A stretch of DNA of 64,000 nucleotides from an uncultured Desulfobacteraceae bacterium (GCA_964478625.1 CAYZJH010000001.1:76588-140587); one strand, 5' to 3'. Positions 4,441-49,214 are shown, counted from the first letter of the stretch. Translations and numbers: made by a program. The notes: generated by a model not told the origin, from the sequence alone.

Positions 4441-4454
4441 TAGTGGGTTTTTAA

Positions 4455-5603: not shown

Positions 5604-5615
5604 GATTCCCCCTTT

Positions 5616-19352: not shown

Positions 19353-19386
19353 AATTATTGGCTACTTTTTTGTTTTTTTCTTTATA

Positions 19387-19995: not shown

Positions 19996-20036
19996 TGATT
20001 CACAAATTTAATCCATCAGGTGTTAACAAGCCTATT

Positions 20037-20705
20037 TTATAAAGCCTGAGCATCCATCCGCCCGATCTGCATCTTATTCAGATTTACCTCAAACTCCATC
20101 AGGTTTAATCCTTTAATGGTTACTTGCCTGAGAGTCTTTAAATTGACATTGTTAAATAAAGGCGAATCTTCCAGCCGGGTCATAAAATCAGCTACTGTTT
20201 TACTGTCTAACGCAACTCCTTTAATTGTAATAACAGCCTTTTTGGGTTCCTGAAGAGGTAAATCTTTGGAAATCTCAGGCTGCTTTTTAGTCTGCTTTCC
20301 TTTTGCCGGCGCCAGCTGCGGCTGGGCCTGAATTTCTTCGGTCACCTTAAAACTTGTAAACCACATACGATTACCAACAATGATTTCAGTCATGGCCTGA
20401 AGAATTTCAACCGGTTCTCTGCGTTTCGCTTCAAGATTTTCCATGACTTCCGTCTTGCTTTGCAGCACTTGCAGATTTTTTTTGATTTCTGCGATTTCTT
20501 TGTTAATTTTATTATAGGTTTCCAGCTCTCTTTCCGTATCTGTAATAGCCATTTTTAATTTATTGGTTTTATTGGTTAAGCTCATGTTATAAAAAACCAA
20601 TAGTGCCGATATAAAAAATAATATCAGGAAAAAAATGGAAACCTGTTTTCGAATATTCTCTTTTTTTCTTGCTGCTCTAAAAGGCAGTAGGTTTATTCGA
20701 ATCAT
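20037..20705 (-). CDS. pilN: Type IV pilus assembly protein PilN.
   Basis: 222-aa ORF. The conserved N terminus MIRINLLPFR is followed by a TM helix and a coiled coil. It overlaps pilM by 4 nt. Confidence 0.8.
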   Translation of the reverse strand: MIRINLLPFRAARKKENIRKQVSIFFLILFFISALLVFYNMSLTNKTNKLKMAITDTERELETYNKINKEIAEIKKNLQVLQSKTEVMENLEAKRREPVEILQAMTEIIVGNRMWFTSFKVTEEIQAQPQLAPAKGKQTKKQPEISKDLPLQEPKKAVITIKGVALDSKTVADFMTRLEDSPLFNNVNLKTLRQVTIKGLNLMEFEVNLNKMQIGRMDAQAL

Positions 20706-24302: not shown

Positions 24303-24340
24303 GATCTCATCTCCTTAAATATCTATAAATTGATTCGACA

Positions 24341-26746
24341 TCAATTTCTCAGCGGCTTACCGGTTTTAAGCATGTGTTCAGCCCTGGCCTGAGTTTTTTG
24401 TTCTTTCCAGAAATCCACAAACGCATCCCGTTCGAGTTTTAAGATGACTTCCTCGTCGATTTCACTACCGACCCTGACATCGCCGCCACTGATCACGTAG
24501 CCGATGCGACTGGCCAAAAACGCATCATATTCACTGATCAATCCAGCCGAAAGCATATTGTTCAACTCCATGTTTATTACACCTTGTGCGGCATCACCAA
24601 ATACTCTTACCGGTCTCTTTACAGGAGGTGAATATCCTGCATCAACCATGTTCAACACCTCCTTTTTAGCTTCTCCAATAAGATAATCCATATTGAACAC
24701 AATGCGGTCTTCAGGGCCCAAAAAGCCTAAAGATCGAGCCTGAGCTGCTGATGTCGATACTTTTGCAGTGGCAATATTTCTAAAAACCGGTGAAAAAAAT
24801 TTAGCAAGATCCACCCCCTGGACAACTTCGGGTACCTGGCGAATAAACTTTTTCCAGAGATTTAAACACCCGCCGCCAGCCGGCAATAGACCCACCCCGA
24901 TTTCCACAAGTCCCATATACAATTCAGCATGAGCCACCATTTTATCCGCAGCGCCCAAACAAATTTCACACCCCCCGCCAAGAACCAGCCCATAAGGAGC
25001 GGCCACCACGGGAAAAGGTGAATATTTTGCTTTTTGCATAATTCCTTGGACCTTTTTAATAAATTGTTCAATTTCGTCAAACTTTCCCCGGCGAACCATT
25101 TCTCCCATTAACCGAAGATCGCCGCCTGCTGAGAATGCTCCTGGCATTCCTGTCGTCTGATTTCCGATCACCAAACCTGCCCCGTATTTATCGGTAAAAT
25201 CCAAGCTCTCTTCCAAAAAATCAACAATCTCTTGGTTTATAGCGTTCATTTTTGTATGAAACTCACAACAGAACACATGATCACCGAGATCCACAAGGGA
25301 AGCCGACTTACATGTCTTAACCGTTTTATTCATATTTTTTAACGCCGGCAGTAAGATGATACTTTGGCTCACTTTCTGTTCACGATACTTATGGGTATTT
25401 AAATCGTAATAAAACTTTTTTCCGTTTTCCATTTTATAAAAAGACCTGTTGCCATATTGAAGCATTTTTCGGACATTCTCGGGAATGGAAAACCCTTCTT
25501 GTTCCATTTTGGCAACCGATTCTTCAAGACCTATTGCATCCCATGTCTCAAAGGGACCCAGTTGAAAATTGTATCCCCATTTCATGGCATTATCGATTTC
25601 AATTATGGTTTGAGCGATTTCAGGGATTCTGGATGCTGCATAAATCAGGCTTGTGGCAACAACTTTCCAGGCGAACCTGGCCCCCTTGTCTTTTCCATAA
25701 ACCACTGCCCTGATTTTTTCAGGCAATGTTTCAGCATTCATCGCCTGGGCTAAACATTCAAATTGGCTTTTCGGAACCTCCTTGTACTCAAAATCGCTCA
25801 AATCCAATACTTTCAAGACCTTTTGACCGTCCTTCCATTCCGATTTGTAAAATCCGGCCCCCGATTTATCGCCAAGAAGCTTTTTTTCGATCATCTTATT
25901 AATATAAAGCGGCAGTTTAAAAGACTGTCTGAGTTCGTCATTTTTCACCAATTCATAGGTATTATTTGCCACATGAGCCAGTGTATCCAGACCAACCAGG
26001 TCGCATGTCTTAAACAATGCTGTCTTAGGTCTTCCGAGAACAGGTCCGAAAAGGGAGTCTACCTCTGCAATACTGAGTTTTTGATCCTGCATGGCTTGCA
26101 TTGCCATTACGATTTGTTGAACCCCGATTCTATTTCCGATAAAATTGGGAGTATCCTTTGCCAACACAATTCCTTTCCCAAGAATACGTTCCCCAAAATC
26201 ACATATAAACTCAATAATATCAGTTGATGTCTCTTCTCCGGGTATGATCTCCAAAAGTCGCATATAACGAACAGGATTGAAAAAGTGGGTTCCCAGAAAA
26301 TTTTTTTTGAATTGAAGGCTTAAGTCCTTAGAAAGCTCTCTAATAGGTAACCCTGATGTATTTGTGGAAACAATAGCATCCGGTTTTCGAACCTTCTCGA
26401 TTTTTTGAAAAAGGTCTTTTTTGATTTCAAGCTTTTCTATTACCACTTCCACGATCCAGTCACATTCGGCAAGCTTCCCAAAGTCATCTTCAAGATTTCC
26501 CAGTGAAATCAGATCAGCGTCTTTTGGATCCATCAGCAAAAAAGGTTTTGATTTTAAAATAGCCTCAAAACCGTTCATGACTATTCTGTTTCTTTCTTTA
26601 GGATCTCCTTTCTTGTTTTGGTCAAGATTCGGCGGCACAATGTCCAGAAGCAGTGTTTTGATACCGGCGCTTGCCAGGAGTGCAGCAATACCACCTCCCA
26701 TGACACCGGAACCAATGACTGCACTTTTTCGGATTTTTCTGACCAT
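24341..26746 (-). CDS. Fused 3-hydroxyacyl-CoA dehydrogenase (N-terminal) / enoyl-CoA hydratase (C-terminal) beta-oxidation enzyme.
   Basis: 801-aa ORF with an N-terminal Rossmann motif (VIGSGVMGGGIAALLA). The HADH core is followed by a crotonase-fold region (FSAGGDL...GGGCEICL). It sits 38 nt upstream of the thiolase gene. Confidence 0.9.
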   Translation of the reverse strand: MVRKIRKSAVIGSGVMGGGIAALLASAGIKTLLLDIVPPNLDQNKKGDPKERNRIVMNGFEAILKSKPFLLMDPKDADLISLGNLEDDFGKLAECDWIVEVVIEKLEIKKDLFQKIEKVRKPDAIVSTNTSGLPIRELSKDLSLQFKKNFLGTHFFNPVRYMRLLEIIPGEETSTDIIEFICDFGERILGKGIVLAKDTPNFIGNRIGVQQIVMAMQAMQDQKLSIAEVDSLFGPVLGRPKTALFKTCDLVGLDTLAHVANNTYELVKNDELRQSFKLPLYINKMIEKKLLGDKSGAGFYKSEWKDGQKVLKVLDLSDFEYKEVPKSQFECLAQAMNAETLPEKIRAVVYGKDKGARFAWKVVATSLIYAASRIPEIAQTIIEIDNAMKWGYNFQLGPFETWDAIGLEESVAKMEQEGFSIPENVRKMLQYGNRSFYKMENGKKFYYDLNTHKYREQKVSQSIILLPALKNMNKTVKTCKSASLVDLGDHVFCCEFHTKMNAINQEIVDFLEESLDFTDKYGAGLVIGNQTTGMPGAFSAGGDLRLMGEMVRRGKFDEIEQFIKKVQGIMQKAKYSPFPVVAAPYGLVLGGGCEICLGAADKMVAHAELYMGLVEIGVGLLPAGGGCLNLWKKFIRQVPEVVQGVDLAKFFSPVFRNIATAKVSTSAAQARSLGFLGPEDRIVFNMDYLIGEAKKEVLNMVDAGYSPPVKRPVRVFGDAAQGVINMELNNMLSAGLISEYDAFLASRIGYVISGGDVRVGSEIDEEVILKLERDAFVDFWKEQKTQARAEHMLKTGKPLRN

Positions 26747-37718: not shown

Positions 37719-38461
37719 CTCACACACTCCTTGTATCCCATTTGGCCTATGCATTCTAAAATTTCACGAGGGTTGGTCGTGCAGCTTAATACTCCATCAT
37801 AAAGAACCTGACCTTTATCGGCGGTAACATAATCAAGAATATACCCCGTATGAGTAATAATCAGTCCCATTTTGGTACGAGCCTGCTTTTGTTTAATTAC
37901 CGGTTTATAATTTTCAGGATGAATTTGCTTTTCCAGAAGATCTGCTATGCTGTTGCCAACAAGAGAAATATTTTCAAGATCCACGCCCGATTCAGGTTCA
38001 TCGAACAGCATCAAATCGGCATTTTGTGCCATAAGCTGCAAAAGCTCGGACCGTTTTATTTCACCGCCGGAAAATCCGGCATTCACATCTCTGTCCAGAA
38101 AATTCAGAAAATCAACTCGATCGGCCAATTCTTCAACCTTAACTTCTTTTCCGGCGCAGATATTGACCATTTGACGGGTTTTTAACCCGTTAATGGTCGG
38201 AGGTCTCTGGTAAGACATACCGATTCCCAGCCTGGCGCGTTCATTGATGGGCATATGGGTGATTTCTTCACCCTTAAAGTACATTTTACCACCAATCACC
38301 TTGTATTGAGGATATCCCATGATCGTCATCAAAAGTGAGGTTTTACCCGAACCATTGGGGCCGAACAAAACATGGGTTTCACCAGGTTTTATTTCCAGAT
38401 CAATGTGTTTAAGGATGACATTACCCTCCAACTCCACCTGCAGATCTTCAATTTGCAGCAT
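37697..38461 (-). CDS. sufC: Fe-S cluster assembly ATPase SufC.
   Basis: 254-aa ORF with Walker A GPNGSGKTSL, the ABC signature FSGGEIKR and Walker B LMLFDEPESG. It overlaps the sufB/D start by 22 nt. Confidence 0.9.
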   Translation of the reverse strand: MLQIEDLQVELEGNVILKHIDLEIKPGETHVLFGPNGSGKTSLLMTIMGYPQYKVIGGKMYFKGEEITHMPINERARLGIGMSYQRPPTINGLKTRQMVNICAGKEVKVEELADRVDFLNFLDRDVNAGFSGGEIKRSELLQLMAQNADLMLFDEPESGVDLENISLVGNSIADLLEKQIHPENYKPVIKQKQARTKMGLIITHTGYILDYVTADKGQVLYDGVLSCTTNPREILECIGQMGYKECVRCVIGRN

Positions 38462-38699
38462 AAACTCCTCCTGTGCGAATTCACTTTAAGATCGCACTGA
38501 TAAATGATGTTCTCTTAACCATCTTATCCCTTTAATTTCACGGTTCTCATATTTCCAGGCTAAAAATCTAACCATCACCTTCACATATTCAAGCTCCCAA
38601 AACAGATTCTTCTTACCTAACCCTTCAGCAGACATCAACCATTCACCAGATTGACACCCAAACTTAAAGTCAGGGTTAAAAGGTGCTTCAGATCCGTCG

Positions 38700-39116
38700 C
38701 TATTTAGGCTCGGTAGGATACCTTGATCGATGCCACTCGTGCCAACCTCCTTTCAAAGCGTACACTTTTTCAAAACCCCTGTCATTCATTTGCTTCGCCA
38801 CCCAGGCGGAGGTTCCTTCGCCAGGTCAGGCGCAATACAGAATATAAGTTTTTCCAACATCATAATTATCTATCCAATCTTTCAAATTAGCCGGGTCTTC
38901 GTGGACAGCACCGCTGATTTTTATATCACTTGCCCTCCAGTCACTGCCTGACCTCACATCTAAAAAAATTACATCCGGATTATCCATCATCTCCCGAGCT
39001 TCCTCCTTGGTCATACGAGGAATTTCTTTTGCCCATATTTCCTGTGATGCCGTGATCACAGCCACCATCACCAACAGCGGCAAGATGATCAAAGCTTTTA
39101 TCCTGATAATGCTCAT
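38700..39116 (-). CDS. Secreted single-domain rhodanese (sulfurtransferase) with an in-frame TGA at codon 97, a probable selenocysteine (YCA-U-PGEG active-site loop).
   Basis: The ORF track stops at TGA (38828..38826) after ...GKTYILYCA. The same frame continues PGEGTSAWVAKQMNDRGFEKVYALKGGWHEWHRSRYPTEPK to TAG (38702..38700), which completes the rhodanese fold. The signal peptide is MSIIRIKALIILPLLVMVAVITASQEIWA. A GC-rich hairpin follows the TGA. Confidence 0.65.
38793..38825 (-). promoter_or_regulatory. Candidate bacterial SECIS-like stem-loop immediately 3' of the in-frame UGA.
   Basis: The mRNA reads UGA-CCUGGCGAAGGAACCUCCGCCUGGGUGGCGAAG. CCGCC pairs with GGCG around a UGGGU loop at +15..+33. 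An alternative pairs GGCG at +4..+7 with CGCC at +18..+21. Folded by eye only. Confidence 0.4.
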
Positions 39117-39165
39117 ATCATTTTCCTTTCTTTCTTGGTTACACGATATTTCGATCGCCCTGGCA

Positions 39166-40455
39166 TCAACATCCTGATCTCAAAAAGATCGTTCTGAAAG
39201 CCGACAATACAATAAAAACGAAAACTAAAATCAACGCTATCAGCATATCAGGATCGGTAACCAATAGAACAACCGTCCCTGACATAAAAGTCGCTGCTGC
39301 AACAATTCCAGGCAGCACCAACCCCCTGTTTTCCATTTTAACCGAACCTGAAATTTGCCGAATTACATAAAGATTTAAAATTCCATGTGAAATAAGCCAA
39401 AGATAAAAAGCACTCCGACAGAGTGTTTCAGTGAAATTTTTACCCGCCATCCCCGCGATCAGCATGCTCAGAATACCAATGGACAAAATAACCATGATCA
39501 TATTTCCCTGTAAAACTTTTTTGGTCAACATGGAAAAAATTTGTCCGGACCTGGCCTTGGAAACTACAACAGAGGAAACACCCATCAATAGAGTGTTGAC
39601 GGAAGCAAAGCTTCCGGCAAGGATTGCTATTCCCATTATCTTACGGCCAGTTTCACCTGAGATAGCACGGGCAACGACAGAATGAGGAACAGTGCTGTCT
39701 GAAAGACGTTGTGAAGACGCAAAGTTCATGGAAACATTTCCCCAAAACCAAAAAACAGCTACGACCGCAATAATTGCCGTTATGATGGAAATCAATACAA
39801 AGGATGATCGCTTCTGGTAGGCTGCGTCATAATAATAGGCCAGATCAGCAGCCATAAAAAGCCAGAAAAGCAATGCCATTGACCTCCAATCCACATAAGT
39901 TGGTTGCACCACCTCATGAATTTCAGAAACCTGATTTGCACGGTTCAAAAACCCCAAAGCTATTAATATGAGCATCGACACGACGAAAACAACAACTGCC
40001 CATTTCTGAATGTGCCTTGAGGCATCAGGAATCAAAAAATTCAAAGCAACGATGAATATGAGAAAACATATGGAAAAAAGTAGATTCGGAAACCAATAAA
40101 AAAAAATTTCATTCAGGGCATATCCAGCCATGGCCAGGATAAGAGTCGATGCACCAATGCAAAAGGGAATCAGGGAGGAAAACTGCAATGTCGTAAAAAA
40201 CCATCGTAAATCGACTTTATTGATCGTAATTTTCTCATTGAAATCTGGTGAATTCAAAAACCAGAAATATAAGTATGCAGTCCACAAGTGGATCACGGCA
40301 ATACAGGGAAGCGCCCACAGAAACCATTTCCCTAAATTCCCCGCACTGTTGCCCAAAATTACAAGAGACAAAGGAGATATCATAAACCCTATGGCTATGC
40401 TTGTTGTCGTAAAAAAACTGGTTTGAGGCATATTGGGCTCGTTCATTGGAATCAA
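39166..40455 (-). CDS. Polytopic membrane permease, probably APC-superfamily-like; substrate unknown.
   Basis: 429-aa ORF with about 12 hydrophobic segments. It resembles amino-acid/polyamine-type permeases only loosely (e.g. VARAISGETGRKIMGIAILAGSFASVN). It ends 49 nt upstream of the rhodanese gene. Confidence 0.55.
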   Translation of the reverse strand: MIPMNEPNMPQTSFFTTTSIAIGFMISPLSLVILGNSAGNLGKWFLWALPCIAVIHLWTAYLYFWFLNSPDFNEKITINKVDLRWFFTTLQFSSLIPFCIGASTLILAMAGYALNEIFFYWFPNLLFSICFLIFIVALNFLIPDASRHIQKWAVVVFVVSMLILIALGFLNRANQVSEIHEVVQPTYVDWRSMALLFWLFMAADLAYYYDAAYQKRSSFVLISIITAIIAVVAVFWFWGNVSMNFASSQRLSDSTVPHSVVARAISGETGRKIMGIAILAGSFASVNTLLMGVSSVVVSKARSGQIFSMLTKKVLQGNMIMVILSIGILSMLIAGMAGKNFTETLCRSAFYLWLISHGILNLYVIRQISGSVKMENRGLVLPGIVAAATFMSGTVVLLVTDPDMLIALILVFVFIVLSAFRTIFLRSGC

Positions 40456-40543
40456 TACCTTCGATTGTCAGTTTCCCTCCAGGATCCAGGCATGTCTTTT
40501 TAATCAAACGATATCTTTACATTTGGACTTGATCCTCTGGTTG

Positions 40544-42493
40544 TCAAGCTGACCCTTTGTTTTCATTTTTTTTCAATAATACGAAGATATCTCCTTCAAC
40601 AGGTTTGTCGTTTTCTTTTCTCAACACAACAGGGCTATGATGGATGATTTGGAATCCTTTTTTTTCAGAAAGAACCCTGATGTATTTGCCTGCGTGAGCA
40701 AAGCGCCCTGTAGAACGTAAGCGATAGCCTTCCTCGCGGAATCGTTCCGTTGAAAATACAAAACACCCCCCATGAGTTATTCTGTTTTTGAGGTTTGAAA
40801 ATAATGGTTCCAAGTCACCCATATACACGAGAACATCTGCTGCAATCACCAAGTCAAATGTTTCACTGCTTTCCCCTAAAAATTCATTAATTTCTGAAAC
40901 ATGTAATTGGTTGTAAATATTTTTTTGTTGTGCGACACCAATCATGTCCGGCGAAATATCCACACCCACCATATATCCAGCGATATCATGAAAAACTTTT
41001 CCAGCCAAACCGGTCCCGCATCCCAAATCCAGAACATGTTTAAATTTCATATCCTTTCCGACAGATTGATCCAAAGCCTTTCGGAGAAGCTGCGGTGTCT
41101 GGTAGGAAAGTTTGCAGGTCAAATGGTTTTCAAATCGTTTTGAATATTGGTTAAAAAGCTCTTTGACATATTCCGGCGGTGCGTTTTTGGGGTTTTCTCC
41201 CGCCAATGCGGCTGCCATGTATTTGGCGGAGTGATTGCCTGGATCAAGCTGAGCAGCTTTTTGAAGCGCCGACAAAGCTTGACTTGTCTGTCCCATTTCA
41301 ATCAATGTGGTCCCGATATTGTGATAGGCATCGGCATATCCTGGAAAAAGTTTGGCTGCCTGGTTAAAAGCTATAAGAGCCTCCTGAAGTCTTCCCCGGG
41401 TTTTAAACAAGATACCGATATTCTGAAATACATGGGGGTTGTTTGGTTCCAGAGATATTGCCGTTTGATAGGACTTGAAAGCCTCTTGATTTTTTCCGGT
41501 TGCGCTTAAAGCGACCCCGAGGTTGTTATGGGTTTGGGGATGTTTCGGGTCTATTTCAATGGCCTTTTTATAAGCTTCAATGGCTTCTTCGATCCGGCCT
41601 TCGCTTTTCAGGGCAATTCCCAGGCTGTTATAGGCCTCTGCAAATGCAGGTTTTTTTTCAATGGCTTTTTCAAACTCTTCAATAGCCTCCGCCATTTTTT
41701 TATTGGCAAGCAGGTAGTTTCCATAACGATGATGAGCTTCGGCCGAATCCCTCGCCAAAAGTACGGCTTTTTGAAACGCCGCAGCAGCTTCGGCTTGTTT
41801 ACCTGCCGACTCAAAAGCAGCACCTAAATTTTGATAAGCTTGAACATTTTCAGGATCTGTTTGAATGCATTTTCTAAACTCTTCAACAGCCTCTTGAATT
41901 TTTCCCAGAAAAAGGAGTGCTTTTCCCAACCGGTTGCGGGTTTCCACCATGTCCGGTTTTTTATCCAAAAATTGTCTGAGTACTAAAATGGCCTCTCCCG
42001 GTTGATCATGCTTCAACAATATCCCGCTCAGGTTATGGCAAGCCTCGATATTTTCGGAATCTAAATCAAATGCTTTTTGAAATGCGTCGATGGCCTCGGA
42101 AATTTTACCCGTTTTACTGAGCACTTTTCCCATCATGTTGTAGGTTTCCGGATTTTTGGGATTCAGAGCAAGAGCTGTTTGAAAAGCATCTAATGCATCA
42201 GCGGCATCACCCATGGCACAGAGCGCAAGGCCCAGATGATTGTAAAAATAATCTCTTTCCGGTGCGCTGTGAATGGCTCGGGAAATCAATTCAGCTGCTA
42301 AACCGGGATTCTTGTTTCGGTAATAAATGCCGCCGAGCAGGTAAAGGGCATCAGGATTTTCCGGATCAAGGTCTAACAATTTTTCATAAAGAAATTGAGC
42401 TTCAGTGAATTTTCCATCCTGATTCGCAGCAATTGCCTTATCCAGCAACTCTTGTATTTTCATCTCTTTTTGTTCCATGTCCTTCTTTTTCAA
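40544..42493 (-). CDS. TPR-repeat protein fused to a C-terminal class I SAM-dependent methyltransferase domain.
   Basis: 649-aa ORF. About 12 TPR units fill residues ~10-430. The C terminus has VLDLGCGTGLAG (motif I) and DLVIAADVLVYMGDL. Confidence 0.8.
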   Translation of the reverse strand: MKKKDMEQKEMKIQELLDKAIAANQDGKFTEAQFLYEKLLDLDPENPDALYLLGGIYYRNKNPGLAAELISRAIHSAPERDYFYNHLGLALCAMGDAADALDAFQTALALNPKNPETYNMMGKVLSKTGKISEAIDAFQKAFDLDSENIEACHNLSGILLKHDQPGEAILVLRQFLDKKPDMVETRNRLGKALLFLGKIQEAVEEFRKCIQTDPENVQAYQNLGAAFESAGKQAEAAAAFQKAVLLARDSAEAHHRYGNYLLANKKMAEAIEEFEKAIEKKPAFAEAYNSLGIALKSEGRIEEAIEAYKKAIEIDPKHPQTHNNLGVALSATGKNQEAFKSYQTAISLEPNNPHVFQNIGILFKTRGRLQEALIAFNQAAKLFPGYADAYHNIGTTLIEMGQTSQALSALQKAAQLDPGNHSAKYMAAALAGENPKNAPPEYVKELFNQYSKRFENHLTCKLSYQTPQLLRKALDQSVGKDMKFKHVLDLGCGTGLAGKVFHDIAGYMVGVDISPDMIGVAQQKNIYNQLHVSEINEFLGESSETFDLVIAADVLVYMGDLEPLFSNLKNRITHGGCFVFSTERFREEGYRLRSTGRFAHAGKYIRVLSEKKGFQIIHHSPVVLRKENDKPVEGDIFVLLKKNENKGSA

Positions 42494-42507
42494 AATTCAC
42501 TTCTCCA

Positions 42508-44115
42508 TCAATGTTTAAAAAATCCTTTTCCCGGCGGAGCATAGTTCCTTTGAATGATTTTCCGGTAATCATCCTGTTCTTTTTCCCATCGTTCGTCATC
42601 CCAACCCAAAGTATGCTCGCAAAGACTTCGGATTCGCTGCATGTGATTTTTTGCTCCGCCCGGTAAAATAAGTCCGATCCGCACTCTTCGAAGAAGCAAA
42701 TCTGCAAGGTGGCGAACGTGTTCATATTTGGAAGCATAAGGCAACTCCGCCCATATTGTGGGCGTATCCGGTATCAGTTCCAAATCTTCAGGTGACGCTT
42801 CCCGGACAAGTTTTTCAGCACCATTTCCATACCTGCCCAATAAACGACGCTTGGTTTTTTCCGAAAGGTTTACATTTGTGGAAAATTCGCCGACAGCATT
42901 TGAAAATAAAGGGTTTTGGGTATGGAGGGAAGGAATAAAGGAAATGTAAGATCGGCACAAATTGAGAACATCCCACGCAATTTTTCTGAATGTTGTCAGT
43001 TTTCCTCCTGCAACAGAGATTAGGCCCTTGTCAGTTCGCAAAAAGTGTTCTCTTGACTCTGAAGACGGATCCTTTTGGGTTTTACTGAATACGGTTCGAA
43101 CACCTGCAAAAGTTGAAATGCAGTCATCGCAGGTAATTTTTAAGGAAGGGAAAAAAGCCTGTACGCCCCTGATCAGATAGCTTATTTCCTTTTCAGTAAT
43201 TTTTGGAGAATCGACCTGAGTTTTCGGATGCTCCAGGTCGGTTGTGCCGAACAAAACAACACCTTCCCAGGGAATCGTAAATACAAACCTTCCGTCTTCA
43301 GGGTGCAGGCAACTGATGGCGTGTGAAACCGGAAGTCTTTTTGATGGAAATACCAAGTGGCTCCCTCTGAGCAAACGGACATGGAAATCAGTTCCATCAA
43401 GCGGATGAAGGTGATCGGTCCACGGGCCTGTGGCATTTACGACAACGGAACTCCAAAAATTGTCCGAATCCGAAATTTCAACATCCTCGGCACCAACTCC
43501 CACAACATTTCCTTGACGATTCCGATGGATTTTTTTAACCCGGACATAATTGGCCGCTGCTCCGCCATTGGCGATACCTTCCTGAATGAGCCTCAATACC
43601 AGCCTGGAATCATCAACCTGAGCGTCATTGAAACGAAATCCCCCGATAAGTCCTTTTGAACAAAGATAAGGTTCTGAATGTATAATTTCTTTCGAACTAT
43701 AAAACCGATGCTGGTTTTTGAGCGCCATAAGGTCATAAACCATCATCCCCAGTCCTAACATCCACTTACCGGGGGTCTGATTTTTAAACACCGGCAAAAA
43801 GAATCCCAATGGTTCCACAAGCCCCGGAGCTTCTCTGAGGAGTCTTTGCCGATGAACCACTGAGGTCCGGGTCAACCCCAATCTGCCTTGCCCGAGATAT
43901 CGGAATCCGCCATGGACCAGTTTGGAAGATCGGCTCGACGTACCCCAGGCAAAATCATTTTGCTCCAAAAGAAGTGTTTTCAGGCCAAGCTTTGTGGCTT
44001 CGTGGAATATCCCTGCTCCAGAAATACCTCCCCCAATAACAATTATATCCCATTGTTTAGGAATATCTCTTCCTTTAAAGTGTATCATGGATTGATTGTC
44101 TTTCCGTATTATCAC
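42508..44115 (-). CDS. FAD-dependent glycerol-3-phosphate dehydrogenase-like oxidoreductase (GlpD/GlpA family).
   Basis: 535-aa ORF with the dinucleotide fold DIIVIGGGISGAGI, plus GTSSRSSKLVHGGFRYL, characteristic of GlpD. The start is either GTG 44115 or ATG 44088. Confidence 0.8.
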   Translation of the reverse strand: MIIRKDNQSMIHFKGRDIPKQWDIIVIGGGISGAGIFHEATKLGLKTLLLEQNDFAWGTSSRSSKLVHGGFRYLGQGRLGLTRTSVVHRQRLLREAPGLVEPLGFFLPVFKNQTPGKWMLGLGMMVYDLMALKNQHRFYSSKEIIHSEPYLCSKGLIGGFRFNDAQVDDSRLVLRLIQEGIANGGAAANYVRVKKIHRNRQGNVVGVGAEDVEISDSDNFWSSVVVNATGPWTDHLHPLDGTDFHVRLLRGSHLVFPSKRLPVSHAISCLHPEDGRFVFTIPWEGVVLFGTTDLEHPKTQVDSPKITEKEISYLIRGVQAFFPSLKITCDDCISTFAGVRTVFSKTQKDPSSESREHFLRTDKGLISVAGGKLTTFRKIAWDVLNLCRSYISFIPSLHTQNPLFSNAVGEFSTNVNLSEKTKRRLLGRYGNGAEKLVREASPEDLELIPDTPTIWAELPYASKYEHVRHLADLLLRRVRIGLILPGGAKNHMQRIRSLCEHTLGWDDERWEKEQDDYRKIIQRNYAPPGKGFFKH

Positions 44116-44130
44116 GATTTCGGTAAAATA

Positions 44131-45780
44131 TTAATCTGTCAATTTTCCGGGATTCATTTGTTTTTCAGGATCCACATAAGAATATAGGGTTCGAATCAGA
44201 TCAATGCCCAGCTTTCCTTTTTCTGCAGAAAGGTATGGGAGATGATCCACACCGATTCCATGCTGGTGGCTGATCGTGCCATGGGAATGAAGAATTTCCA
44301 GGCTTGCAGCTTTTTTCAAGATCTTCCATCGAGACAGCGTTTGTTCAGGTGTATCAGCCAAGCGAAACAAAAATGTCGTGTATATATTTGAACCTGTGGG
44401 ATATACGTGAGAGAGGTGCGAAAAAGTGAATACTTTTTCACCGCATGAAGAAAGCCCTCGCTTGAGAGCTGTTTGGATATTTTCCATTGTGGAAGTAACC
44501 TTGTCCCAATTAACAGCTGTCTCAAGGGTATCCACGGCATACCCCATGTCCCATAAAGTATTTCTGAGATAGGGGGCTAAAAAACGATTTTTTTTCCATG
44601 CTTCACCCATGATTTTTCCTGCCCAGACTCCCCTGAATTTTCGGATTTGTGAAGACACCTCCTTAATACTTTGTGAAACCATTCCTGAAGACCCGGCAAA
44701 ACCAATAAGCGCCATACAAATACCTTGATTAGGAAACCCCCGGATTTTGAGATACTTGTTTAAAATCCAAACCCAGGGTTTGTGACCGGCTAAAGACATA
44801 TTTGTTTCAGTCTCCCGGGGATTGCTGAGCCGCATCATGGAAATGGGAATTCCTTTGCCCATAATTTCTCTTACAAATTCCAAAGCATTTTCCCAAAAAG
44901 GGAAAAAAACTCCATAGACAACATCTCTTTGGGGCAATCCAGAAACCTTAACCGTAACGTGGGTTAATATCCCCATCCTTGCCTCGGAACCCAAGACCAG
45001 ATGTTTAATATCCGGACCGGCAGCGGAAGACGGTATCGGATGAATATCGATTTTTCCCCTTGGCGTAATCACCTGACCTCCCGCAAAGAGCCCGCCAATA
45101 CTCCCATACTTTAAAGATTGCTGTCCGCTGGAGCGTGTCACGACCCACCCACCAAGAGTCGAAAATTCAAAAGATTGTGGGAAGTGTCCCAAGGTAAACC
45201 CCCTTGGATTCAAATGTCTTTCGATTTCAGGTCCTCTTATACCTGCCTCAAATGTTGCAAGTCTCGTGTAGGGATTAAATGCAACCATACGATTAAAGCG
45301 TTCGAGAGAAATGATTAAGACGGGTCTTTTGCCGCCGGGAACGGTCAAGTGACCGACAACGGAAGTTCCACCTCCATATGGGATTATAACTACCCCGTGC
45401 TTTTTTGCATAACACAGCAGGTCTCTGATCTGTTGAATATTTTCGGGAAATGCAACACCATCCGGAAATCGGTTAAGCATCCCACCACGCAATCCAATCC
45501 AGTCAGGAAGGCTCTGTCCATGAGCGTGATAGAGTCTTTGTCGTGGTGAAGTATCGATCAAGAAATTGGCTTCAAGCCGAGATGGTGGGACTTTGGATAG
45601 ATATTTGTCCAAAGAATAGTCTTTCTGACTTTTTCCGGGTCCGATTGCATCGGAAAGCATAGATTTTGCTTCTACCGGAATATCAACACTAACATTTTCA
45701 TATCCCCATCCGTTCCAACGCAGCTTTTCAATTTCATCCCTCATCTGTTTTCGCAATCCTTTCCAAGGCCGATTTCGCAT
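44131..45780 (-). CDS. FAD-linked oxidase resembling alkyl-dihydroxyacetonephosphate synthase (AGPS).
   Basis: 549-aa ORF. The N-terminal RWNGWGYE motif, HAHGQSLPDW, the FAD-binding PCMH region (IIPYGGGTSVVG) and C-terminal SHQHGIG fit my recollection of AGPS-type enzymes. Confidence 0.7.
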   Translation of the reverse strand: MRNRPWKGLRKQMRDEIEKLRWNGWGYENVSVDIPVEAKSMLSDAIGPGKSQKDYSLDKYLSKVPPSRLEANFLIDTSPRQRLYHAHGQSLPDWIGLRGGMLNRFPDGVAFPENIQQIRDLLCYAKKHGVVIIPYGGGTSVVGHLTVPGGKRPVLIISLERFNRMVAFNPYTRLATFEAGIRGPEIERHLNPRGFTLGHFPQSFEFSTLGGWVVTRSSGQQSLKYGSIGGLFAGGQVITPRGKIDIHPIPSSAAGPDIKHLVLGSEARMGILTHVTVKVSGLPQRDVVYGVFFPFWENALEFVREIMGKGIPISMMRLSNPRETETNMSLAGHKPWVWILNKYLKIRGFPNQGICMALIGFAGSSGMVSQSIKEVSSQIRKFRGVWAGKIMGEAWKKNRFLAPYLRNTLWDMGYAVDTLETAVNWDKVTSTMENIQTALKRGLSSCGEKVFTFSHLSHVYPTGSNIYTTFLFRLADTPEQTLSRWKILKKAASLEILHSHGTISHQHGIGVDHLPYLSAEKGKLGIDLIRTLYSYVDPEKQMNPGKLTD

Positions 45781-45886
45781 CTACTTAAACCCATCCAGCC
45801 ACAGCACCTTGTCTTCGAACAGTGATTACCCTTGTGTTGTCTAACAGAAAATATCATCTTTGAGATGTGATACACCTTTTTTGCAT

Positions 45887-45922
45887 AAAAAAAGGGCCTT
45901 TTAGGTAAAAAGCCCTTTTTTT
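45887..45922 (-). terminator. Rho-independent terminator after the HEAT-repeat gene.
   Basis: AAAAAAAGGGC(14 nt)GCCCTTTTTTT. The stem is followed by a U-run on the minus-strand transcript, 22 nt after the stop codon. Confidence 0.8.
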
Positions 45923-45943
45923 CTGATCCAGTCGTTTAACTCT

Positions 45944-46822
45944 TCACAGTTGACTCATAATTTTTTTAGCAGCTGCCTGAACGTCCAAATCGGGGTCTGC
46001 ATACATTGCAGCAATTTTTTTCTTAAAGTTGATTATCCGAGTCTTATCAGCCTCTGCAATACATTCCAACGCAAGAAGTCTAATCCGTGAATCTTCATCT
46101 TTGAGGCAACCGATATATGCGTCCAGGTGCTCCTCGGGTTCGGTTAATGCCTTCAGTAATACAAGGGCATCATATCGAAGTTCGGGATTGGAATCATTTA
46201 AATAAGTTAGATACACATCTATGACTTCATCTTGTTTTGAAGTCAAATGCCACAGGTTAAAAAGAATACATCTTTTCTGCTCCAGAGCCCCATATTTCAA
46301 TCGATCAGATAGTATCGTAAAAACGCGGTCATCTCCAAGGTCGGTCAATGCGTTCACAGCTGCCTGCATCACATCCAAATCCGAATCAAACAAAAGGGAG
46401 ATCAATGGTATTGCCGCTTGAAAATTACCATTCCAACCCAGGGCACTTGCAGCGTACATGCGCAACTCGGCGTCATTACTTTCTAAATCTATTAAAAGTT
46501 GGTCAATCAGAGCTTGGGTTTTTTTTAGCGTGGGAAAAATTACCCGAAGCTGTATCGCGGCAATGTATCTTATTTCTTCATTTTCCTCGCTATCGGATAG
46601 CATTCTGTAAAGCGGCCAGGCAATTTCCTCTTTAGCTGAGCTTCCTAACATTAAAATGATTTTCTGCTTAATGGCGTTGTCTGCATATTTCAAGGCATTG
46701 AGCAGTAACGGAATTGCAGCTTCCCGATCTTCTAAAAACAATTCTTTGGATTCAAGAAACTTATCCACTTTACTGAGAACACGCTCCCCGGGATTAAACG
46801 GAATTACATTGATTTGTTTCAT
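45944..46822 (-). CDS. HEAT/PBS-lyase-like repeat protein.
   Basis: 292-aa ORF of repeated ~30-residue helical units (e.g. DAELRMYAASALGWNG; DLDVMQAAVNALTDLGD; DSRIRLLALECIAEA). Confidence 0.7.
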   Translation of the reverse strand: MKQINVIPFNPGERVLSKVDKFLESKELFLEDREAAIPLLLNALKYADNAIKQKIILMLGSSAKEEIAWPLYRMLSDSEENEEIRYIAAIQLRVIFPTLKKTQALIDQLLIDLESNDAELRMYAASALGWNGNFQAAIPLISLLFDSDLDVMQAAVNALTDLGDDRVFTILSDRLKYGALEQKRCILFNLWHLTSKQDEVIDVYLTYLNDSNPELRYDALVLLKALTEPEEHLDAYIGCLKDEDSRIRLLALECIAEADKTRIINFKKKIAAMYADPDLDVQAAAKKIMSQL

Positions 46823-47078
46823 GATTTTTTCGTATTTGTTTTTATTTCAAATTCAGGCATTCTCAGGAAACATTAATAAACATTCTTTTCAAAATTTTAA
46901 ATCATGATTTTTTATACAACAAATTTATAAATTATCGCAAGATTAAAAAAATTGATTACAATCAGGTTTGGGCAACCTAAACAGAATGGTTCTTACTGGT
47001 TTATATGGCAAATACAATCCCCAAAAAAGCCGCAGCTATGATTTACTCGGCTTTTAGACTTTTGAGGAATAAAATAGT

Positions 47079-49214
47079 ATGCGAATGCGTTGGAAATTTT
47101 TAATCGTCTTGCTGGGCATTTCATTAGTTCCCATGTTCATCATGCGTATCAATGGTCAACAAACGATGCGTTCATTGGGCCAGGATTTGGCCACCCACTC
47201 CAAAAACGCCTTAATCATTGAAACCAAAATTGCTCTGAAACGCCTGGTGGAAGATCATGCCCGCGTCCTGAAACGCGAGCGGGAGTTGCTGGAAATGACA
47301 CTTTCCCTGCTTTCATCGGAAATCCAGAAAAGACTTTATTACCTTGAAGACAACTCTTTTATTGAAACGGAAATCTTTTTCTCATCCGGAACAATTGCAT
47401 TACAAGAACATCATGAAAAGGAGATGTATTGTGTTCTAAAACATCAAAATCAATGCCTTCCCATGAAAGTAGATTTTAAAAAACAAGGCATTTATGACCT
47501 CACCTTGACTGAGGGAAAAAATGAGGATCAAGATATTTCACACAGGCTTGCCTCATTGCTTTCTTTAAACTTTGCCATCAAAAACAAACATCCTGAATTA
47601 ATTCTTTGGCAATATGTCATTATGGAAACCGGTACTGAAATGATCTATCCTTTTCCGGGCCATGAATACAGACATCGCATGAGGAGCATGTCCCCATTGC
47701 CGGATTGGTATCTTGCAGCAAAAGAAAAAAGACATATCAACTGGTCGCACCCAACTCTGGATCCAATAACCGGCGGAATTGTGTTTTTTGTATCCGCGCC
47801 TTTTTATGACCTGGAAGGAAATTTTACGGGCGCATCGGCTCTTGCAGTTCCTCTGACTGTTTTTCTTCATGAAAACAAACACATACGGATGCTCTCTGAT
47901 CATGTAATCTCCCTGCTGGTCGAACCTGAACACTCTGCAGAACGGCCCATAAGAATCATTGCACAGGAATCGGCTCATGAAAAAAGACATAGGCACTGGT
48001 TTGCAGCAGCTTCTCCCCAATGGCTGAAATCACCCGACCTTGCTCAGTTACAGGAAATGGCCGAAGATCTCAAAAATTATCATTCCGATGTCCGCGAAAT
48101 AGAATATGGAGGCATTTCAAACCTGATGGCTTATCAATCTTTTGATGAGCACGGTACGGCACTTCTCTTAATAGTGCCTAAGGAAGATATTTTAAAAGAT
48201 GCCAACCTCATTGAAAAATATGTTCATGATAAAATCGATGAACAAATCGTTTTTACCGGCATCATTTTACTCACTATTTTTATCGTGATTATCGTTTTGT
48301 CGTTTATATTGTCCCGATCATTTACAATTAACATTTCCAGGTTGGCAGAAGCTGTCGCGCGTGTTGCCTCCGGAGACTTTCATGCACGGGTAGATTTAAA
48401 AACCCGTGATGAATTGGGGCAACTCGGAAAAGCTTTCAATGGGATGATTCCCGCCCTTGAGGAACGAGTTCACATGAAACAATCTCTGGATTTGGCCGTT
48501 GAAGTTCAGCAGAGTTTGTTCCCATCAAAGACCCCAAAAATTGAAGGCATTTCTATCGCCGCAAACAGCCTTTACTGCCAGGAAACAGGTGGTGATTTTT
48601 ATGATTTTATAGACATTTATCGGAATGACACAACTGGCACTGCGGTTGTTGTTGGTGATGTGACCGGCCATGGCCTGTCCGCTGCATTACTCATGGCGAC
48701 CTCCAGAGCATTTTTAAGATCACGCCTCACACAACCAGGCTCCATGGGACAAATTATCACCGATATCAACCGCCTGATATCCGAAGATACCATTGAAACC
48801 TCCCAGTTTGTAACATTATTTTATCTGGAAATTGACCATGACCACAAAAGTTACCGATGGATCAGAGCAGGCCATGATCCGGCAATCATTTATGATCCTG
48901 TAATGGATAGGTTTTCGAACCTTGACGGTAAAGGTCCCGCTTTAGGGATAATGAGTGATTTTAAATATGAGGAAACGCCGGCTGTTAAATTTCTGTCAGG
49001 CCAGATTCTTCTTATAGGAACAGACGGCATCTGGGAAACACGAAATCCAGAGGGTGAAATGTATAATAAACAGAGAATCAAAACCATCATCCGAAACAAC
49101 CGTCAAAATTCTGCTGAGCAGATCCTGGAAGCCGTCACCAGCGCTCTTCTGCATTTCAGGGGAAACCGGCGCCAGGATGATGATGTTACAATGGTGATCA
49201 TTAAAATGGATTAA
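47079..49214 (+). CDS. Membrane-bound SpoIIE/PP2C-family protein phosphatase with an extracytoplasmic sensor domain and HAMP.
   Basis: 711-aa ORF. The order is N-terminal TM, a ~350-aa periplasmic region, a second TM, HAMP (RLAEAVARVASGDF) and then PP2C motifs (GGDFYDF, VVVGDVTGHGLSAALLMA, GTDGIWE, DDVTMV). Confidence 0.85.
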   Translation: MRMRWKFLIVLLGISLVPMFIMRINGQQTMRSLGQDLATHSKNALIIETKIALKRLVEDHARVLKRERELLEMTLSLLSSEIQKRLYYLEDNSFIETEIFFSSGTIALQEHHEKEMYCVLKHQNQCLPMKVDFKKQGIYDLTLTEGKNEDQDISHRLASLLSLNFAIKNKHPELILWQYVIMETGTEMIYPFPGHEYRHRMRSMSPLPDWYLAAKEKRHINWSHPTLDPITGGIVFFVSAPFYDLEGNFTGASALAVPLTVFLHENKHIRMLSDHVISLLVEPEHSAERPIRIIAQESAHEKRHRHWFAAASPQWLKSPDLAQLQEMAEDLKNYHSDVREIEYGGISNLMAYQSFDEHGTALLLIVPKEDILKDANLIEKYVHDKIDEQIVFTGIILLTIFIVIIVLSFILSRSFTINISRLAEAVARVASGDFHARVDLKTRDELGQLGKAFNGMIPALEERVHMKQSLDLAVEVQQSLFPSKTPKIEGISIAANSLYCQETGGDFYDFIDIYRNDTTGTAVVVGDVTGHGLSAALLMATSRAFLRSRLTQPGSMGQIITDINRLISEDTIETSQFVTLFYLEIDHDHKSYRWIRAGHDPAIIYDPVMDRFSNLDGKGPALGIMSDFKYEETPAVKFLSGQILLIGTDGIWETRNPEGEMYNKQRIKTIIRNNRQNSAEQILEAVTSALLHFRGNRRQDDDVTMVIIKMD

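What the first reader, a model, noticed from the sequence alone, without database searches (positions are those of the whole stretch)
40544..45780. AGPS-like flavoenzyme, GlpD-like dehydrogenase and TPR-methyltransferase operon as a candidate bacterial ether-lipid module
Three minus-strand genes are packed with 14-15 nt spacers. The first is a FAD-linked oxidase with the N-terminal RWNGWGYE motif and overall layout I associate with alkyl-dihydroxyacetonephosphate synthase. The second is a GlpD-type FAD glycerol-3-phosphate dehydrogenase, which would produce DHAP from G3P. The third is a 649-aa TPR protein with a C-terminal SAM methyltransferase. Mesophilic sulfate reducers are known to make alkylglycerol ether lipids, and their genetic basis is only partly resolved. 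An AGPS gene next to a DHAP-generating enzyme is a coherent, testable candidate route. No acyl-DHAP acyltransferase or reductase is visible in the operon. The role of the TPR-methyltransferase is unexplained.
Basis: partly seen in the sequence, partly recalled or inferred. Interest (0 to 1): 0.6.

Follow-up and report, generated by a model that had tools for sequence, protein, structure and literature searches.

The report
AGPS-like flavoenzyme paired with GlpD-like dehydrogenase
The three genes are real, but the "ether-lipid synthase" belongs to a widespread sister family of that enzyme that almost always sits next to its own glycerol-phosphate dehydrogenase, in many bacteria with no known ether lipids, and its function is still untested.

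Summary
Three co-directional minus-strand genes encode an AGPS-like flavoenzyme, a GlpD-like dehydrogenase and a TPR protein with a SAM-methyltransferase domain, in an uncultured Desulfobacterales sulfate reducer (dsrAB lies in the window).

- The flavoenzyme has the AGPS fold (TM 0.85-0.89) and the catalytic Arg/Arg/Tyr/His-x-His residues. It belongs, however, to a sister clade about 32% identical to true AGPS.
- True bacterial AGPS genes sit beside fatty-acyl reductase, acyltransferase and SDR genes.
- The window's clade has a GlpD-like gene directly downstream in 74 of 80 genomes, from Pseudomonas and Marinobacter to Chloroflexota, Bacillota and Desulfobacterales. An FGGY kinase follows in 56 of 69. 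A FadR-type or AraC (GliR) regulator often sits upstream.
- This is the P. aeruginosa PA3026-PA3024 operon type. The same glycerol-to-alkyl-DHAP idea was proposed for it in 2021, and its deletion gave no phenotype.
- Ether lipids of sulfate reducers are already explained by the enzyme Ger.
- The TPR-methyltransferase is linked to the pair only in this narrow lineage.

Most likely the GlpD-like enzyme makes a DHAP-type ketone, and the AGPS-like enzyme then swaps the group on C1. This would serve fatty-acid-responsive glycerolipid turnover rather than main-line ether-lipid synthesis. The function is untested.

The parts
44131..45780 (-). AGPS-like FAD flavoenzyme of the PA3026-type sister clade of alkyl-DHAP synthase. 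The probable true start is at 45744 (537 aa).
   Evidence: Pfam finds FAD_binding_4 plus FAD-oxidase_C. The best PDB sequence hits are AGPS 2uuu at 1.3e-80 and 4bby at 1e-65. The AF2 model (pLDDT 85) matches AGPS at TM 0.85-0.89. R317, R406, Y467, H505 and H507 correspond to Dictyostelium R352, R447, Y508, H544 and H546. The middle His of the HHH loop is Gln. The NJ tree places it in the W clade.
42508..44115 (-). GlpD-like FAD-dependent glycerol-3-phosphate-type dehydrogenase, the near-obligate partner of the flavoenzyme. The probable start is at 44088 (526 aa).
   Evidence: Pfam finds DAO plus DAO_C. PDB hits are 3da1 at 1.7e-77 and E. coli GlpD 2qcu at 4e-59. The E. coli positions R54, Y55, H233, R317, R332 and K354 are conserved in the alignment. 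NCBIfam PRK12266 scores 293.7 bits, below the 360 cut-off. A homologue lies directly downstream of the flavoenzyme gene in 74 of 80 loci.
40544..42493 (-). TPR-repeat protein with a C-terminal class I SAM-methyltransferase domain. It is a lineage-specific companion of unknown substrate.
   Evidence: Pfam finds TPR families plus Methyltransf_31/12/25/11 at residues 485-584. The C-terminal domain gives only weak, generic methyltransferase hits, such as UbiG, BioC and Bud23. It is 72% and 69% identical and syntenic in L088 and L089. It is absent from all 80 more distant loci.
39166..40455 (-). Polytopic membrane protein that weakly resembles APC-type permeases. It is conserved downstream in this lineage only.
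   Evidence: AA_permease_2 scores 28 bits and no NCBIfam model hits. It is syntenic in L001, L002, L088 and L089.
45887..45922 (-). Terminator-like hairpin flanked by A and T runs. It marks the 5' boundary of the unit, after the HEAT-repeat gene.
   Evidence: Sequence. The fold has a 16-bp stem at -18.3 kcal/mol with z -3.18.
45944..46822 (-). HEAT-repeat protein upstream. It is syntenic in the lineage but separated from the unit by the terminator-like hairpin.
   Evidence: Pfam finds HEAT_2 and HEAT. Synteny is shown.

Best explanation
**What it is.** The first two genes are a copy of a widespread, tightly coupled gene pair. The prototype is P. aeruginosa PA3026/PA3025 in the GliR regulon.

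**How it most likely works.**
- Step 1: the GlpD-like flavoprotein oxidises a glycerol-3-phosphate-type substrate at C2 to a DHAP-type ketone. The substrate could be G3P itself or, as I think more likely, a 1-O-acyl or 1-O-alkyl derivative.
- Step 2: the AGPS-like flavoprotein uses the non-redox AGPS mechanism. It enolises the ketone, forms a covalent adduct on flavin N5, and expels and replaces the group on C1.

**Likely role.** I read the pair as a fatty-acid-responsive module for glycerolipid turnover or salvage. I do not read it as the organism's main ether-lipid biosynthesis route.

**This lineage.** In this Desulfobacterales lineage the usual FGGY kinase and FadR-type regulator are missing from the locus. 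A TPR-methyltransferase and a permease-like protein follow instead, and their roles are unknown.

**Shown versus inferred.** Shown: family membership, the gene pairing, the fold, conservation of the catalytic residues, and the type of regulator. Inferred: the substrates, the direction of the reaction, and the physiological role.
For: **Fold and chemistry**
- The flavoenzyme has the AGPS fold, including the N-terminal domain.
- Sixty-one columns are invariant in both clades. They include Dictyostelium R352, R447 and Y508, which mutagenesis showed to be important for catalysis (PMC3509576), and H544 and H546.

**Coupling**
- A GlpD-like gene lies directly downstream in 74 of 80 genomes, and within 3.2 kb in 2 more.
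- The G3P-site residues of GlpD are conserved in the partner.

**Link to lipids**
- A regulator with a FadR_C (acyl-CoA-binding type) domain lies upstream in 18 loci from Chloroflexota, Bacillota, Acidimicrobiia, Myxococcota and Desulfobacterales.
- In Pseudomonas the regulator is the AraC protein GliR. GliR also induces phospholipase C PlcA and the lipid kinase YegS (PMC8151288).

**Salvage or catabolic flavour**
- An FGGY kinase is present in 56 of 69 loci with enough sequence downstream.
- The clade's loci lack fatty-acyl reductase and acyltransferase neighbours, whereas true bacterial AGPS loci have them.
- The clade occurs in aerobes without known ether lipids.
Against: - No enzyme of this clade has been assayed.
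- The P. aeruginosa operon deletion had no phenotype on the media tested.
- FGGY kinases normally act on small soluble sugars and polyols, not on amphiphiles.
- Thirteen columns separate the two clades. They include H545 to Q in the catalytic loop and three Asp-to-Asn or Asp-to-Gln changes beside catalytic residues. The chemistry or substrate may therefore differ from AGPS.
- The window locus lacks both the kinase and the regulator, so the lineage-specific version may do something else.
- The tree is neighbour-joining, midpoint-rooted and has no outgroup.
Confidence: 0.45

Rival explanations
1. GlpD makes DHAP from G3P. An unlinked acyltransferase makes acyl-DHAP. The flavoenzyme is a true AGPS that exchanges the acyl group for a fatty alcohol to give alkyl-DHAP.
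For: The flavoenzyme has the AGPS fold and catalytic residues. JGI names clade members alkyl-DHAP synthase. The host is a Desulfobacterales sulfate reducer with beta-oxidation genes nearby. Distant agps homologues were noted in some ether-lipid producers (PMC13159169).
Against: The protein is in a clade separate from true AGPS. No FAR, GNPAT-type acyltransferase or SDR reductase lies in the locus, whereas true bacterial AGPS loci have them. The pair is common in Pseudomonas, Marinobacter and Massilia, which are not known for ether lipids. Ger alone yields mono- and diethers from the D. alkenivorans gene expressed in E. coli. DHAP supply needs no dedicated enzyme. Regulators and kinases of catabolic type accompany the pair.
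Confidence: 0.15
2. This model is ordinary redox metabolism of glycerol. The kinase, where present, and the GlpD-like enzyme form a second glycerol/G3P catabolic route induced during lipid breakdown. The AGPS-like protein is a conventional dehydrogenase or an electron-transfer partner for GlpD, not a group-transfer enzyme.
For: FGGY kinase plus GlpD is the classical glycerol route. FadR or GliR control fits use of the glycerol released from lipids. All other VAO-family relatives are redox enzymes. The HHH loop is altered to HQH.
Against: All AGPS-specific catalytic residues and the AGPS-specific N-terminal domain are retained. The D-lactate dehydrogenase relatives match far more weakly. The P. 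aeruginosa operon deletion grows normally on glycerol. Many loci, including the window, have no kinase.
Confidence: 0.15
3. This model is a soluble polyol-phosphate pathway built like erythritol catabolism. An FGGY kinase phosphorylates a polyol. The GlpD-like enzyme oxidises the polyol phosphate. The AGPS-like enzyme then isomerises or cleaves the resulting ketose phosphate through enolisation.
For: The kinase scores best against xylulokinase, at 260 bits, which is below that model's cut-off. Pairing of an FGGY kinase with a GlpD homologue is known from Brucella EryA/EryB (my own recollection, not checked here). The first step of AGPS chemistry is enolisation.
Against: FadR_C-type regulators point to acyl-CoA or lipids rather than sugars. 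No sugar or polyol transporter recurs beside the trio. The residues of the G3P site of GlpD are conserved. Co-regulation in P. aeruginosa is with a phospholipase C and a lipid kinase.
Confidence: 0.1
4. The three genes are neighbours by chance and do not work together.
For: The consensus promoter and terminator scans were uninformative. The methyltransferase is absent from distant loci.
Against: The pair is adjacent and co-directional in 74 of 80 genomes across many phyla. Spacers are 14-42 nt. The full order is conserved at 71-77% protein identity.
Confidence: 0.02

Closest known systems
P. aeruginosa PA3026-PA3025-PA3024 operon, activated by the divergent AraC regulator GliR/PA3027 (Kotecka et al. 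2021, PMC8151288)
   Same: It has the same protein clade and the same order, with the FAD oxidoreductase followed by the GlpD homologue. Pseudomonas loci recovered here are 46-50% identical to the window protein. They carry a GliR equivalog at 667-678 bits, above the 570 cut-off. In both cases the function is unproven.
   Different: The window lacks the FGGY kinase, the YegS lipid kinase and any adjacent regulator. It has a TPR-methyltransferase, a permease-like protein and a rhodanese downstream instead. The host is an anaerobic sulfate reducer.
Canonical alkyl-DHAP synthase (AGPS, EC 2.5.1.26): Dictyostelium 2UUU, guinea pig 4BBY, the M. xanthus MXAN_1676 operon, and bacterial metagenomic homologues
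   Same: It shares the three-domain fold including the N-terminal xWNGWG domain, FAD binding, and the catalytic Arg, Arg, Tyr and outer His residues.
   Different: Identity is only about 32% and the clade is separate. The loop reads HQH instead of HHH, and twelve other columns are fixed differently. Neighbours are a GlpD-like gene and a kinase, not FAR, acyltransferase and SDR genes. There are no AGPS-acyltransferase fusions of the kind seen in the true clade.
Ger, the glycerol ester reductase (modified PlsA) of Desulfatibacillum alkenivorans and Thermotoga
   Different: It is an unrelated protein of about 150 kDa that reduces ester bonds in place under anoxic conditions. Nothing like it is in the window, where the largest ORF is 801 aa.
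E. coli GlpD and Bacillus-type G3P dehydrogenase (2QCU, 3DA1)
   Same: It shares the DAO plus DAO_C architecture. Residues at E. coli positions 54, 55, 233, 317, 332 and 354 are conserved.
   Different: It scores below the NCBIfam equivalog cut-offs. It is almost always encoded next to the AGPS-like gene. In P. aeruginosa it coexists with the housekeeping GlpD.
M. tuberculosis Rv2249c (glpD1) / Rv2251 (flavoprotein) / Rv2252 (lipid kinase) neighbourhood
   Same: As I recall, a GlpD homologue and an AGPS-like flavoprotein are neighbours there, with a YegS/Rv2252-type lipid kinase nearby, as in Pseudomonas.
   Different: This was not checked here, because no mycobacterial sequence was retrieved. 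The literature search found nothing functional.

Membership tests
Canonical AGPS (alkylglycerone-phosphate synthase, EC 2.5.1.26) | VAO-type FAD-binding and cap domains plus the AGPS-specific N-terminal domain | tested here: met
   Pfam domains. PDB phmmer gives 1.3e-80 to 2uuu. The AF2 model matches 4bby and 5ae1 at TM 0.85-0.89, against 0.67 for D-LDH. The xWNGWG motif is present in both clades.
Canonical AGPS (alkylglycerone-phosphate synthase, EC 2.5.1.26) | Catalytic residues Dictyostelium R352, R447 and Y508 | tested here: met
   They correspond to window R317, R406 and Y467. All three are 100% conserved in 119 clade members and in 120 true AGPS sequences. Their roles are taken from PMC3509576.
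Canonical AGPS (alkylglycerone-phosphate synthase, EC 2.5.1.26) | His-His-His active-site loop | tested here: not met
   The window has S-H-Q-H-G. The middle His is Gln in 114 of 119 clade members and His in 120 of 120 true AGPS sequences. The outer two His residues are conserved.
Canonical AGPS (alkylglycerone-phosphate synthase, EC 2.5.1.26) | Groups with eukaryotic and bacterial true AGPS in a tree | tested here: not met
   The NJ tree shows two clades. Mean identity is 52% within the window's clade, 44% within the true AGPS clade and 32% between them. The tree has no outgroup and is midpoint-rooted.
Canonical AGPS (alkylglycerone-phosphate synthase, EC 2.5.1.26) | Encoded with fatty-acyl reductase and DHAP acyltransferase functions | tested here: not met
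   True bacterial AGPS loci L085-L087 carry NAD_binding_4, PF01553 acyltransferase and SDR genes. None is adjacent to the window unit, and none turned up among the 29 window ORFs scanned with Pfam. None recurs in the 80 related loci.
Canonical AGPS (alkylglycerone-phosphate synthase, EC 2.5.1.26) | Converts acyl-DHAP plus fatty alcohol to alkyl-DHAP | not testable with these tools
   This needs an enzyme assay.
PA3026/PA3025-type module (GliR regulon type) | Flavoenzyme of the PA3026 clade directly followed by a GlpD homologue on the same strand | tested here: met
   The arrangement holds in 74 of 80 loci. Clade membership is shown.
PA3026/PA3025-type module (GliR regulon type) | FGGY carbohydrate kinase downstream | tested here: not met
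   tblastn finds no FGGY match anywhere in the 64-kb window. The kinase is present in 56 of 69 other loci with enough sequence.
PA3026/PA3025-type module (GliR regulon type) | Adjacent AraC (GliR) or FadR-type regulator | tested here: not met
   The window gives no significant match to either regulator. The upstream gene is a HEAT-repeat protein.
GlpD (FAD-dependent sn-glycerol-3-phosphate dehydrogenase) | DAO plus DAO_C architecture and conserved G3P/DHAP-site residues | tested here: met
   The alignment to 2qcu conserves R54, Y55, H233, R317, R332 and K354. The roles of these residues come from my memory of the E. coli structure paper, which I could not retrieve.
GlpD (FAD-dependent sn-glycerol-3-phosphate dehydrogenase) | Reaches the curated equivalog score | tested here: not met
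   PRK12266 scores 293.7 against a cut-off of 360, and PRK13369 scores 261.2 against 352.
Ger / PlsA-type or ElbD-type bacterial ether-lipid enzymes | A Ger-like (about 1,400 aa) or ElbD-like multidomain protein is present | tested here: not met
   The largest window ORF is 801 aa and is FadB-like. The rest of the genome is not available.
Class I SAM-dependent methyltransferase with N-terminal TPR array | Rossmann-type SAM-binding motif (DLGCGTG) after the TPR repeats | tested here: met
   Pfam Methyltransf_31/12/25/11 at residues 485-584. The motif is invariant in three orthologues. Only generic methyltransferase matches were found, so no substrate can be assigned.

The most novel reading that the evidence does not exclude
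The pair could be an oxygen-independent route for breaking or remodelling the sn-1 ether or ester bond of glycerolipids. The GlpD-like enzyme would oxidise 1-O-alkyl- or 1-O-acyl-glycerol-3-phosphate to the DHAP derivative. The AGPS-like enzyme would then run AGPS chemistry in the exchange or reverse direction and release the fatty alcohol. Where the FGGY kinase is present, it would first phosphorylate free alkylglycerol. This would give anaerobes such as this sulfate reducer a way to turn over ether lipids without the O2-dependent alkylglycerol monooxygenase. A related variant is a redox-neutral swap of acyl for alkyl on lysophosphatidic acid that needs neither a DHAP acyltransferase nor a reductase.
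Probability: 0.2. Interest if true: 0.8.

Novelty: new member of a known kind. Interest (0 to 1): 0.42.

Why it matters
- The family is large. At least 597 species-level genomes carry it, and thousands of protein clusters match.
- It keeps the unusual non-redox flavin machinery of AGPS, yet it lives in bacteria with no known ether lipids, and it always has its own GlpD-like partner.
- Working out its reaction would do one of two things. It could reveal unrecognised ether-lipid synthesis in common bacteria. Or it could reveal a missing pathway for ether-lipid or glycerolipid turnover, including an anaerobic one relevant to sediment lipid biomarkers.
- For annotation, the result warns against reading automatic "alkyl-DHAP synthase" labels (KEGG K00803-style) as evidence of ether-lipid biosynthesis.

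Tried and rejected
- **Promoter and terminator scan.** The consensus scan over 38400-47200 found fewer promoter-like sites than shuffles and no useful terminators. The terminator-like hairpin after the HEAT gene was found by eye and confirmed by folding.
- **Methyltransferase substrate.** NCBIfam and PDB searches with the C-terminal domain gave only weak, generic class I hits.
- **Missing kinase and regulators.** I searched the window for an FGGY kinase, a FadR or AraC regulator and a YegS kinase, and found none. No paralogue of the flavoenzyme is in the window or the loci, so no outgroup was available for the tree.
- **Papers not held.** The E. coli GlpD structure paper and Grossi et al. 2015 are not held. 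The supplement of the Ger paper listing genomes with agps homologues is not held either.
- **Literature searches.** The search on the mycobacterial Rv2249c/Rv2251 pair found nothing functional. The search for bacterial alkylglycerol degradation found nothing relevant. A 2026 AGPS docking paper gave no list of tunnel residues, so the hydrophobic tunnel could not be compared residue by residue.
- **Weak leads dropped.** The PA3026 and PA3025 mentions in an alkane proteomics paper and a cis-2-decenoic acid array paper were too thin to use.
- **HQH as a clade marker.** I considered HQH against HHH as a strict marker and rejected it, because 5 of 113 clade members with the motif have HHH.

Full report
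**1. Observation**

The region holds three minus-strand ORFs at 44131-45780 (549 aa), 42508-44115 (535 aa) and 40544-42493 (649 aa, TTG start).

Public gene calls for the identical proteins start the first two genes later, at 45744 and 44088. That gives 537 aa and 526 aa and a 42-nt first spacer. The TTG start of the third gene has a GGAG upstream.

A 16-bp terminator-like hairpin (-18.3 kcal/mol, z -3.2) follows the upstream HEAT-repeat gene. The unit therefore starts at the flavoenzyme gene.

Pfam confirms FAD_binding_4 plus FAD-oxidase_C in the first protein and DAO plus DAO_C in the second. The third has a long TPR array followed by a class I SAM-methyltransferase domain.

The window also carries dsrA and dsrB genes and a DsrN-like gene. 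DsrA is 85-88% identical to Desulfatitalea and Desulfococcus proteins. The host is therefore an uncultured Desulfobacterales sulfate reducer.

**2. Is the flavoenzyme AGPS-like?**

Yes, at the level of fold and catalytic residues.
- Sequence search of the PDB gives Dictyostelium AGPS at 1.3e-80 and guinea-pig AGPS at 1e-65. D-lactate dehydrogenase scores only 2e-23.
- An AlphaFold model (pLDDT 85.4, pTM 0.86) matches AGPS structures at TM 0.85-0.89 over the whole chain, including the N-terminal domain. It matches D-LDH at about 0.67.
- Dictyostelium R352, R447 and Y508 were shown by mutagenesis to matter for catalysis (PMC3509576). These three and the outer two histidines of the HHH loop are invariant in the window's relatives.

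**3. Is it an AGPS orthologue?**

No.
- A search with Dictyostelium AGPS recovered eukaryotic AGPS plus many prokaryotic sequences 42-47% identical to it. All carry HHH, and some are fused to a PF01553 acyltransferase domain.
- In a neighbour-joining tree these form one clade. The window protein and its relatives form another. Mean identity is 44% within the first clade, 52% within the second and 32% between them.
- Thirteen alignment columns are fixed differently in the two clades. They include the middle His of the loop (H545 to Q) and three acidic residues next to catalytic residues (D237 to Q, D355 to N, D448 to N).
- Caveats: the tree has no outgroup, and HQH is not absolute, because 5 clade members keep HHH.

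**4. Genomic context separates the clades**

Three bacterial loci of the true-AGPS clade carry NAD_binding_4 (fatty-acyl reductase type), PF01553 acyltransferase and SDR genes beside AGPS. That is the full textbook ether-lipid set.

A scan of species-representative genomes with an alignment of the window's clade hit at least 597 genomes. The best 80 loci include Pseudomonas, Marinobacter, Massilia, Duganella, Nevskiales, Pseudovibrio, Chloroflexota, Bacillota, Holophagales, Vulcanimicrobiota, Acidimicrobiia, Myxococcota and Desulfobacterota.

| Feature near the flavoenzyme gene | Loci |
|---|---|
| GlpD-like gene directly downstream, same strand | 74 of 80 |
| GlpD-like gene within 3.2 kb (additional) | 2 |
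| FGGY kinase, among loci with enough downstream sequence | 56 of 69 |
| FadR-type regulator upstream | 18 |
| AraC regulator upstream | 24 |

No transporter, lipase, reductase or acyltransferase recurs.

The GntR-family regulators carry the FadR_C domain in four different phyla. One passes the NCBIfam FadR cut-off. The nearest Desulfobacterota relatives outside the window's own lineage have the standard order, AGPS-like, GlpD-like, FGGY, usually preceded by FadR.

**5. What is already known**

The Pseudomonas loci carry an AraC regulator that passes the NCBIfam equivalog model for GliR. This is therefore the P. aeruginosa PA3027 / PA3026-PA3024 system.

Kotecka et al. 2021 (PMC8151288) reported the following.
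- GliR strongly activates PA3026-PA3024, the lipid kinase PA3023 and the phospholipase C PlcA.
- In silico they proposed exactly the route glycerol to G3P to DHAP to (acyl-DHAP) to alkyl-DHAP.
- Deleting the operon gave no phenotype on the media and Biolog plates they tried.

For sulfate reducers, Ger (a modified PlsA) from D. alkenivorans produces 1-alkyl monoethers in E. coli, and in later work also diethers (PMC13159169, PMC11150832). The Ger paper also mentions "distant homologs of agps" in some Ger-containing genomes.

**6. The GlpD-like partner**

It aligns along its length with E. coli GlpD and with a Bacillus-type G3P dehydrogenase. It keeps the residues at E. coli positions 54, 55, 233, 317, 332 and 354. 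I recall these as the substrate and phosphate site, but I could not retrieve that paper. It scores below the curated GlpD equivalog cut-offs. Its substrate is therefore G3P or something very like it.

**7. The third gene and the lineage-specific frame**

The TPR-methyltransferase is found only in the window's own lineage.
- It is 72% and 69% identical and syntenic in two relatives whose flavoenzymes are 77% and 71% identical.
- The HEAT-repeat protein upstream and the permease-like protein and rhodanese downstream are syntenic there too.
- It is absent from the other 80 loci.
- Its methyltransferase domain gives only generic matches.
- No FGGY kinase or FadR or AraC regulator is in the 64-kb window.

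**8. Most likely mechanism**

Shown:
- Two flavoenzymes are coupled almost without exception.
- One has a G3P-dehydrogenase active site.
- The other has the AGPS active site, whose chemistry requires a ketone at C2 and a leaving group on C1.
- Regulators are of an acyl-CoA-sensing type or co-regulate phospholipase and lipid kinase genes.

Inferred:
- The GlpD-like enzyme generates the DHAP-type ketone for the AGPS-like enzyme, which then swaps the C1 substituent through a flavin N5 adduct.
- I favour lipid-linked substrates (1-acyl- or 1-alkyl-G3P) and a turnover or salvage role. My reasons are the kinase, the catabolic-style regulators, the lack of reductase and acyltransferase partners, and the occurrence in bacteria without known ether lipids.
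- My confidence in this mechanism is about 0.45. Family membership itself is close to certain.

Rivals:

| Rival model | Confidence |
|---|---|
| Plain glycerol catabolism, with the AGPS-like protein as an ordinary redox enzyme | 0.15 |
| A soluble polyol-phosphate pathway | 0.10 |
| Chance adjacency | 0.02 (effectively excluded for the pair) |

**9. Novelty and verdict**

The locus is a new member of an already noticed but uncharacterised module, in a variant frame that lacks the kinase and the regulator. It is interesting mainly because the whole family is unexplained.

The boldest reading still open is an oxygen-independent ether-cleaving or acyl/alkyl-swapping pathway. I give it a probability of about 0.2.

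Noticed in passing
window 38700-39116 (-); also L088:14678-15097 and L089:14814-15233: The rhodanese gene downstream of the cluster is called as 96 aa because of an in-frame TGA inside 'ILYCA*PGEGTS'. Reading through gives 138 aa with a conserved rhodanese C-terminus. The TGA is at the same position in two relatives. With Cys in place of the stop, the Pfam Rhodanese score doubles from 26.9 to 53.5 bits and the match spans the stop. It is probably a selenocysteine-containing (C-x-U) secreted rhodanese. The hairpin after the UGA is not statistically distinctive.
   Followed up: partly
window 2667-6929 (-): dsrA (5616-6929), dsrB (4455-5603) and a CobB/CobQ-like DsrN-type gene (2667-4082) are present. 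DsrA is 85-88% identical to Desulfatitalea and Desulfococcus proteins, which places the window in an uncultured Desulfobacterales sulfate reducer.
   Followed up: partly
window 45887-45922 (-): A perfect 16-bp hairpin flanked by an A-run and a T-run lies right after the HEAT-repeat gene. It looks like a bidirectional intrinsic terminator. The consensus scanner missed it.
   Followed up: yes
window 14860-16380 (+), 23124-26746 (-): An acyl-CoA synthetase-like gene, a thiolase and an 801-aa FadB-like fusion of 3-hydroxyacyl-CoA dehydrogenase and enoyl-CoA hydratase are present. Fatty-acid beta-oxidation capacity is therefore encoded in the same window.
   Followed up: no
proteins P0212, P0229, P0237, P0239 (metagenomic): Some prokaryotic members of the true AGPS clade are fused to a PF01553 acyltransferase domain (about 790-820 aa). 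This would be a single-polypeptide DHAP acyltransferase plus AGPS.
   Followed up: no
L004:12952-14403 and L027 (between the FGGY and GlpD-like genes): A PLP-dependent decarboxylase (Pyridoxal_deC) lies inside or right after the operon in two distant loci, one from Desulfobacterales and one from Chloroflexota. Its meaning is unknown.
   Followed up: no
window 16460-21760 (-): A type IV pilus assembly cluster is present, with PilM-like (20702-21760) through secretin PilQ-like (16460-18670) genes.
   Followed up: no
window 47079-49214 (+): A membrane sensor protein combining HAMP and SpoIIE (PP2C phosphatase) domains lies divergent to the HEAT gene. It is syntenic in the relatives L001, L088 and L089.
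   Followed up: no
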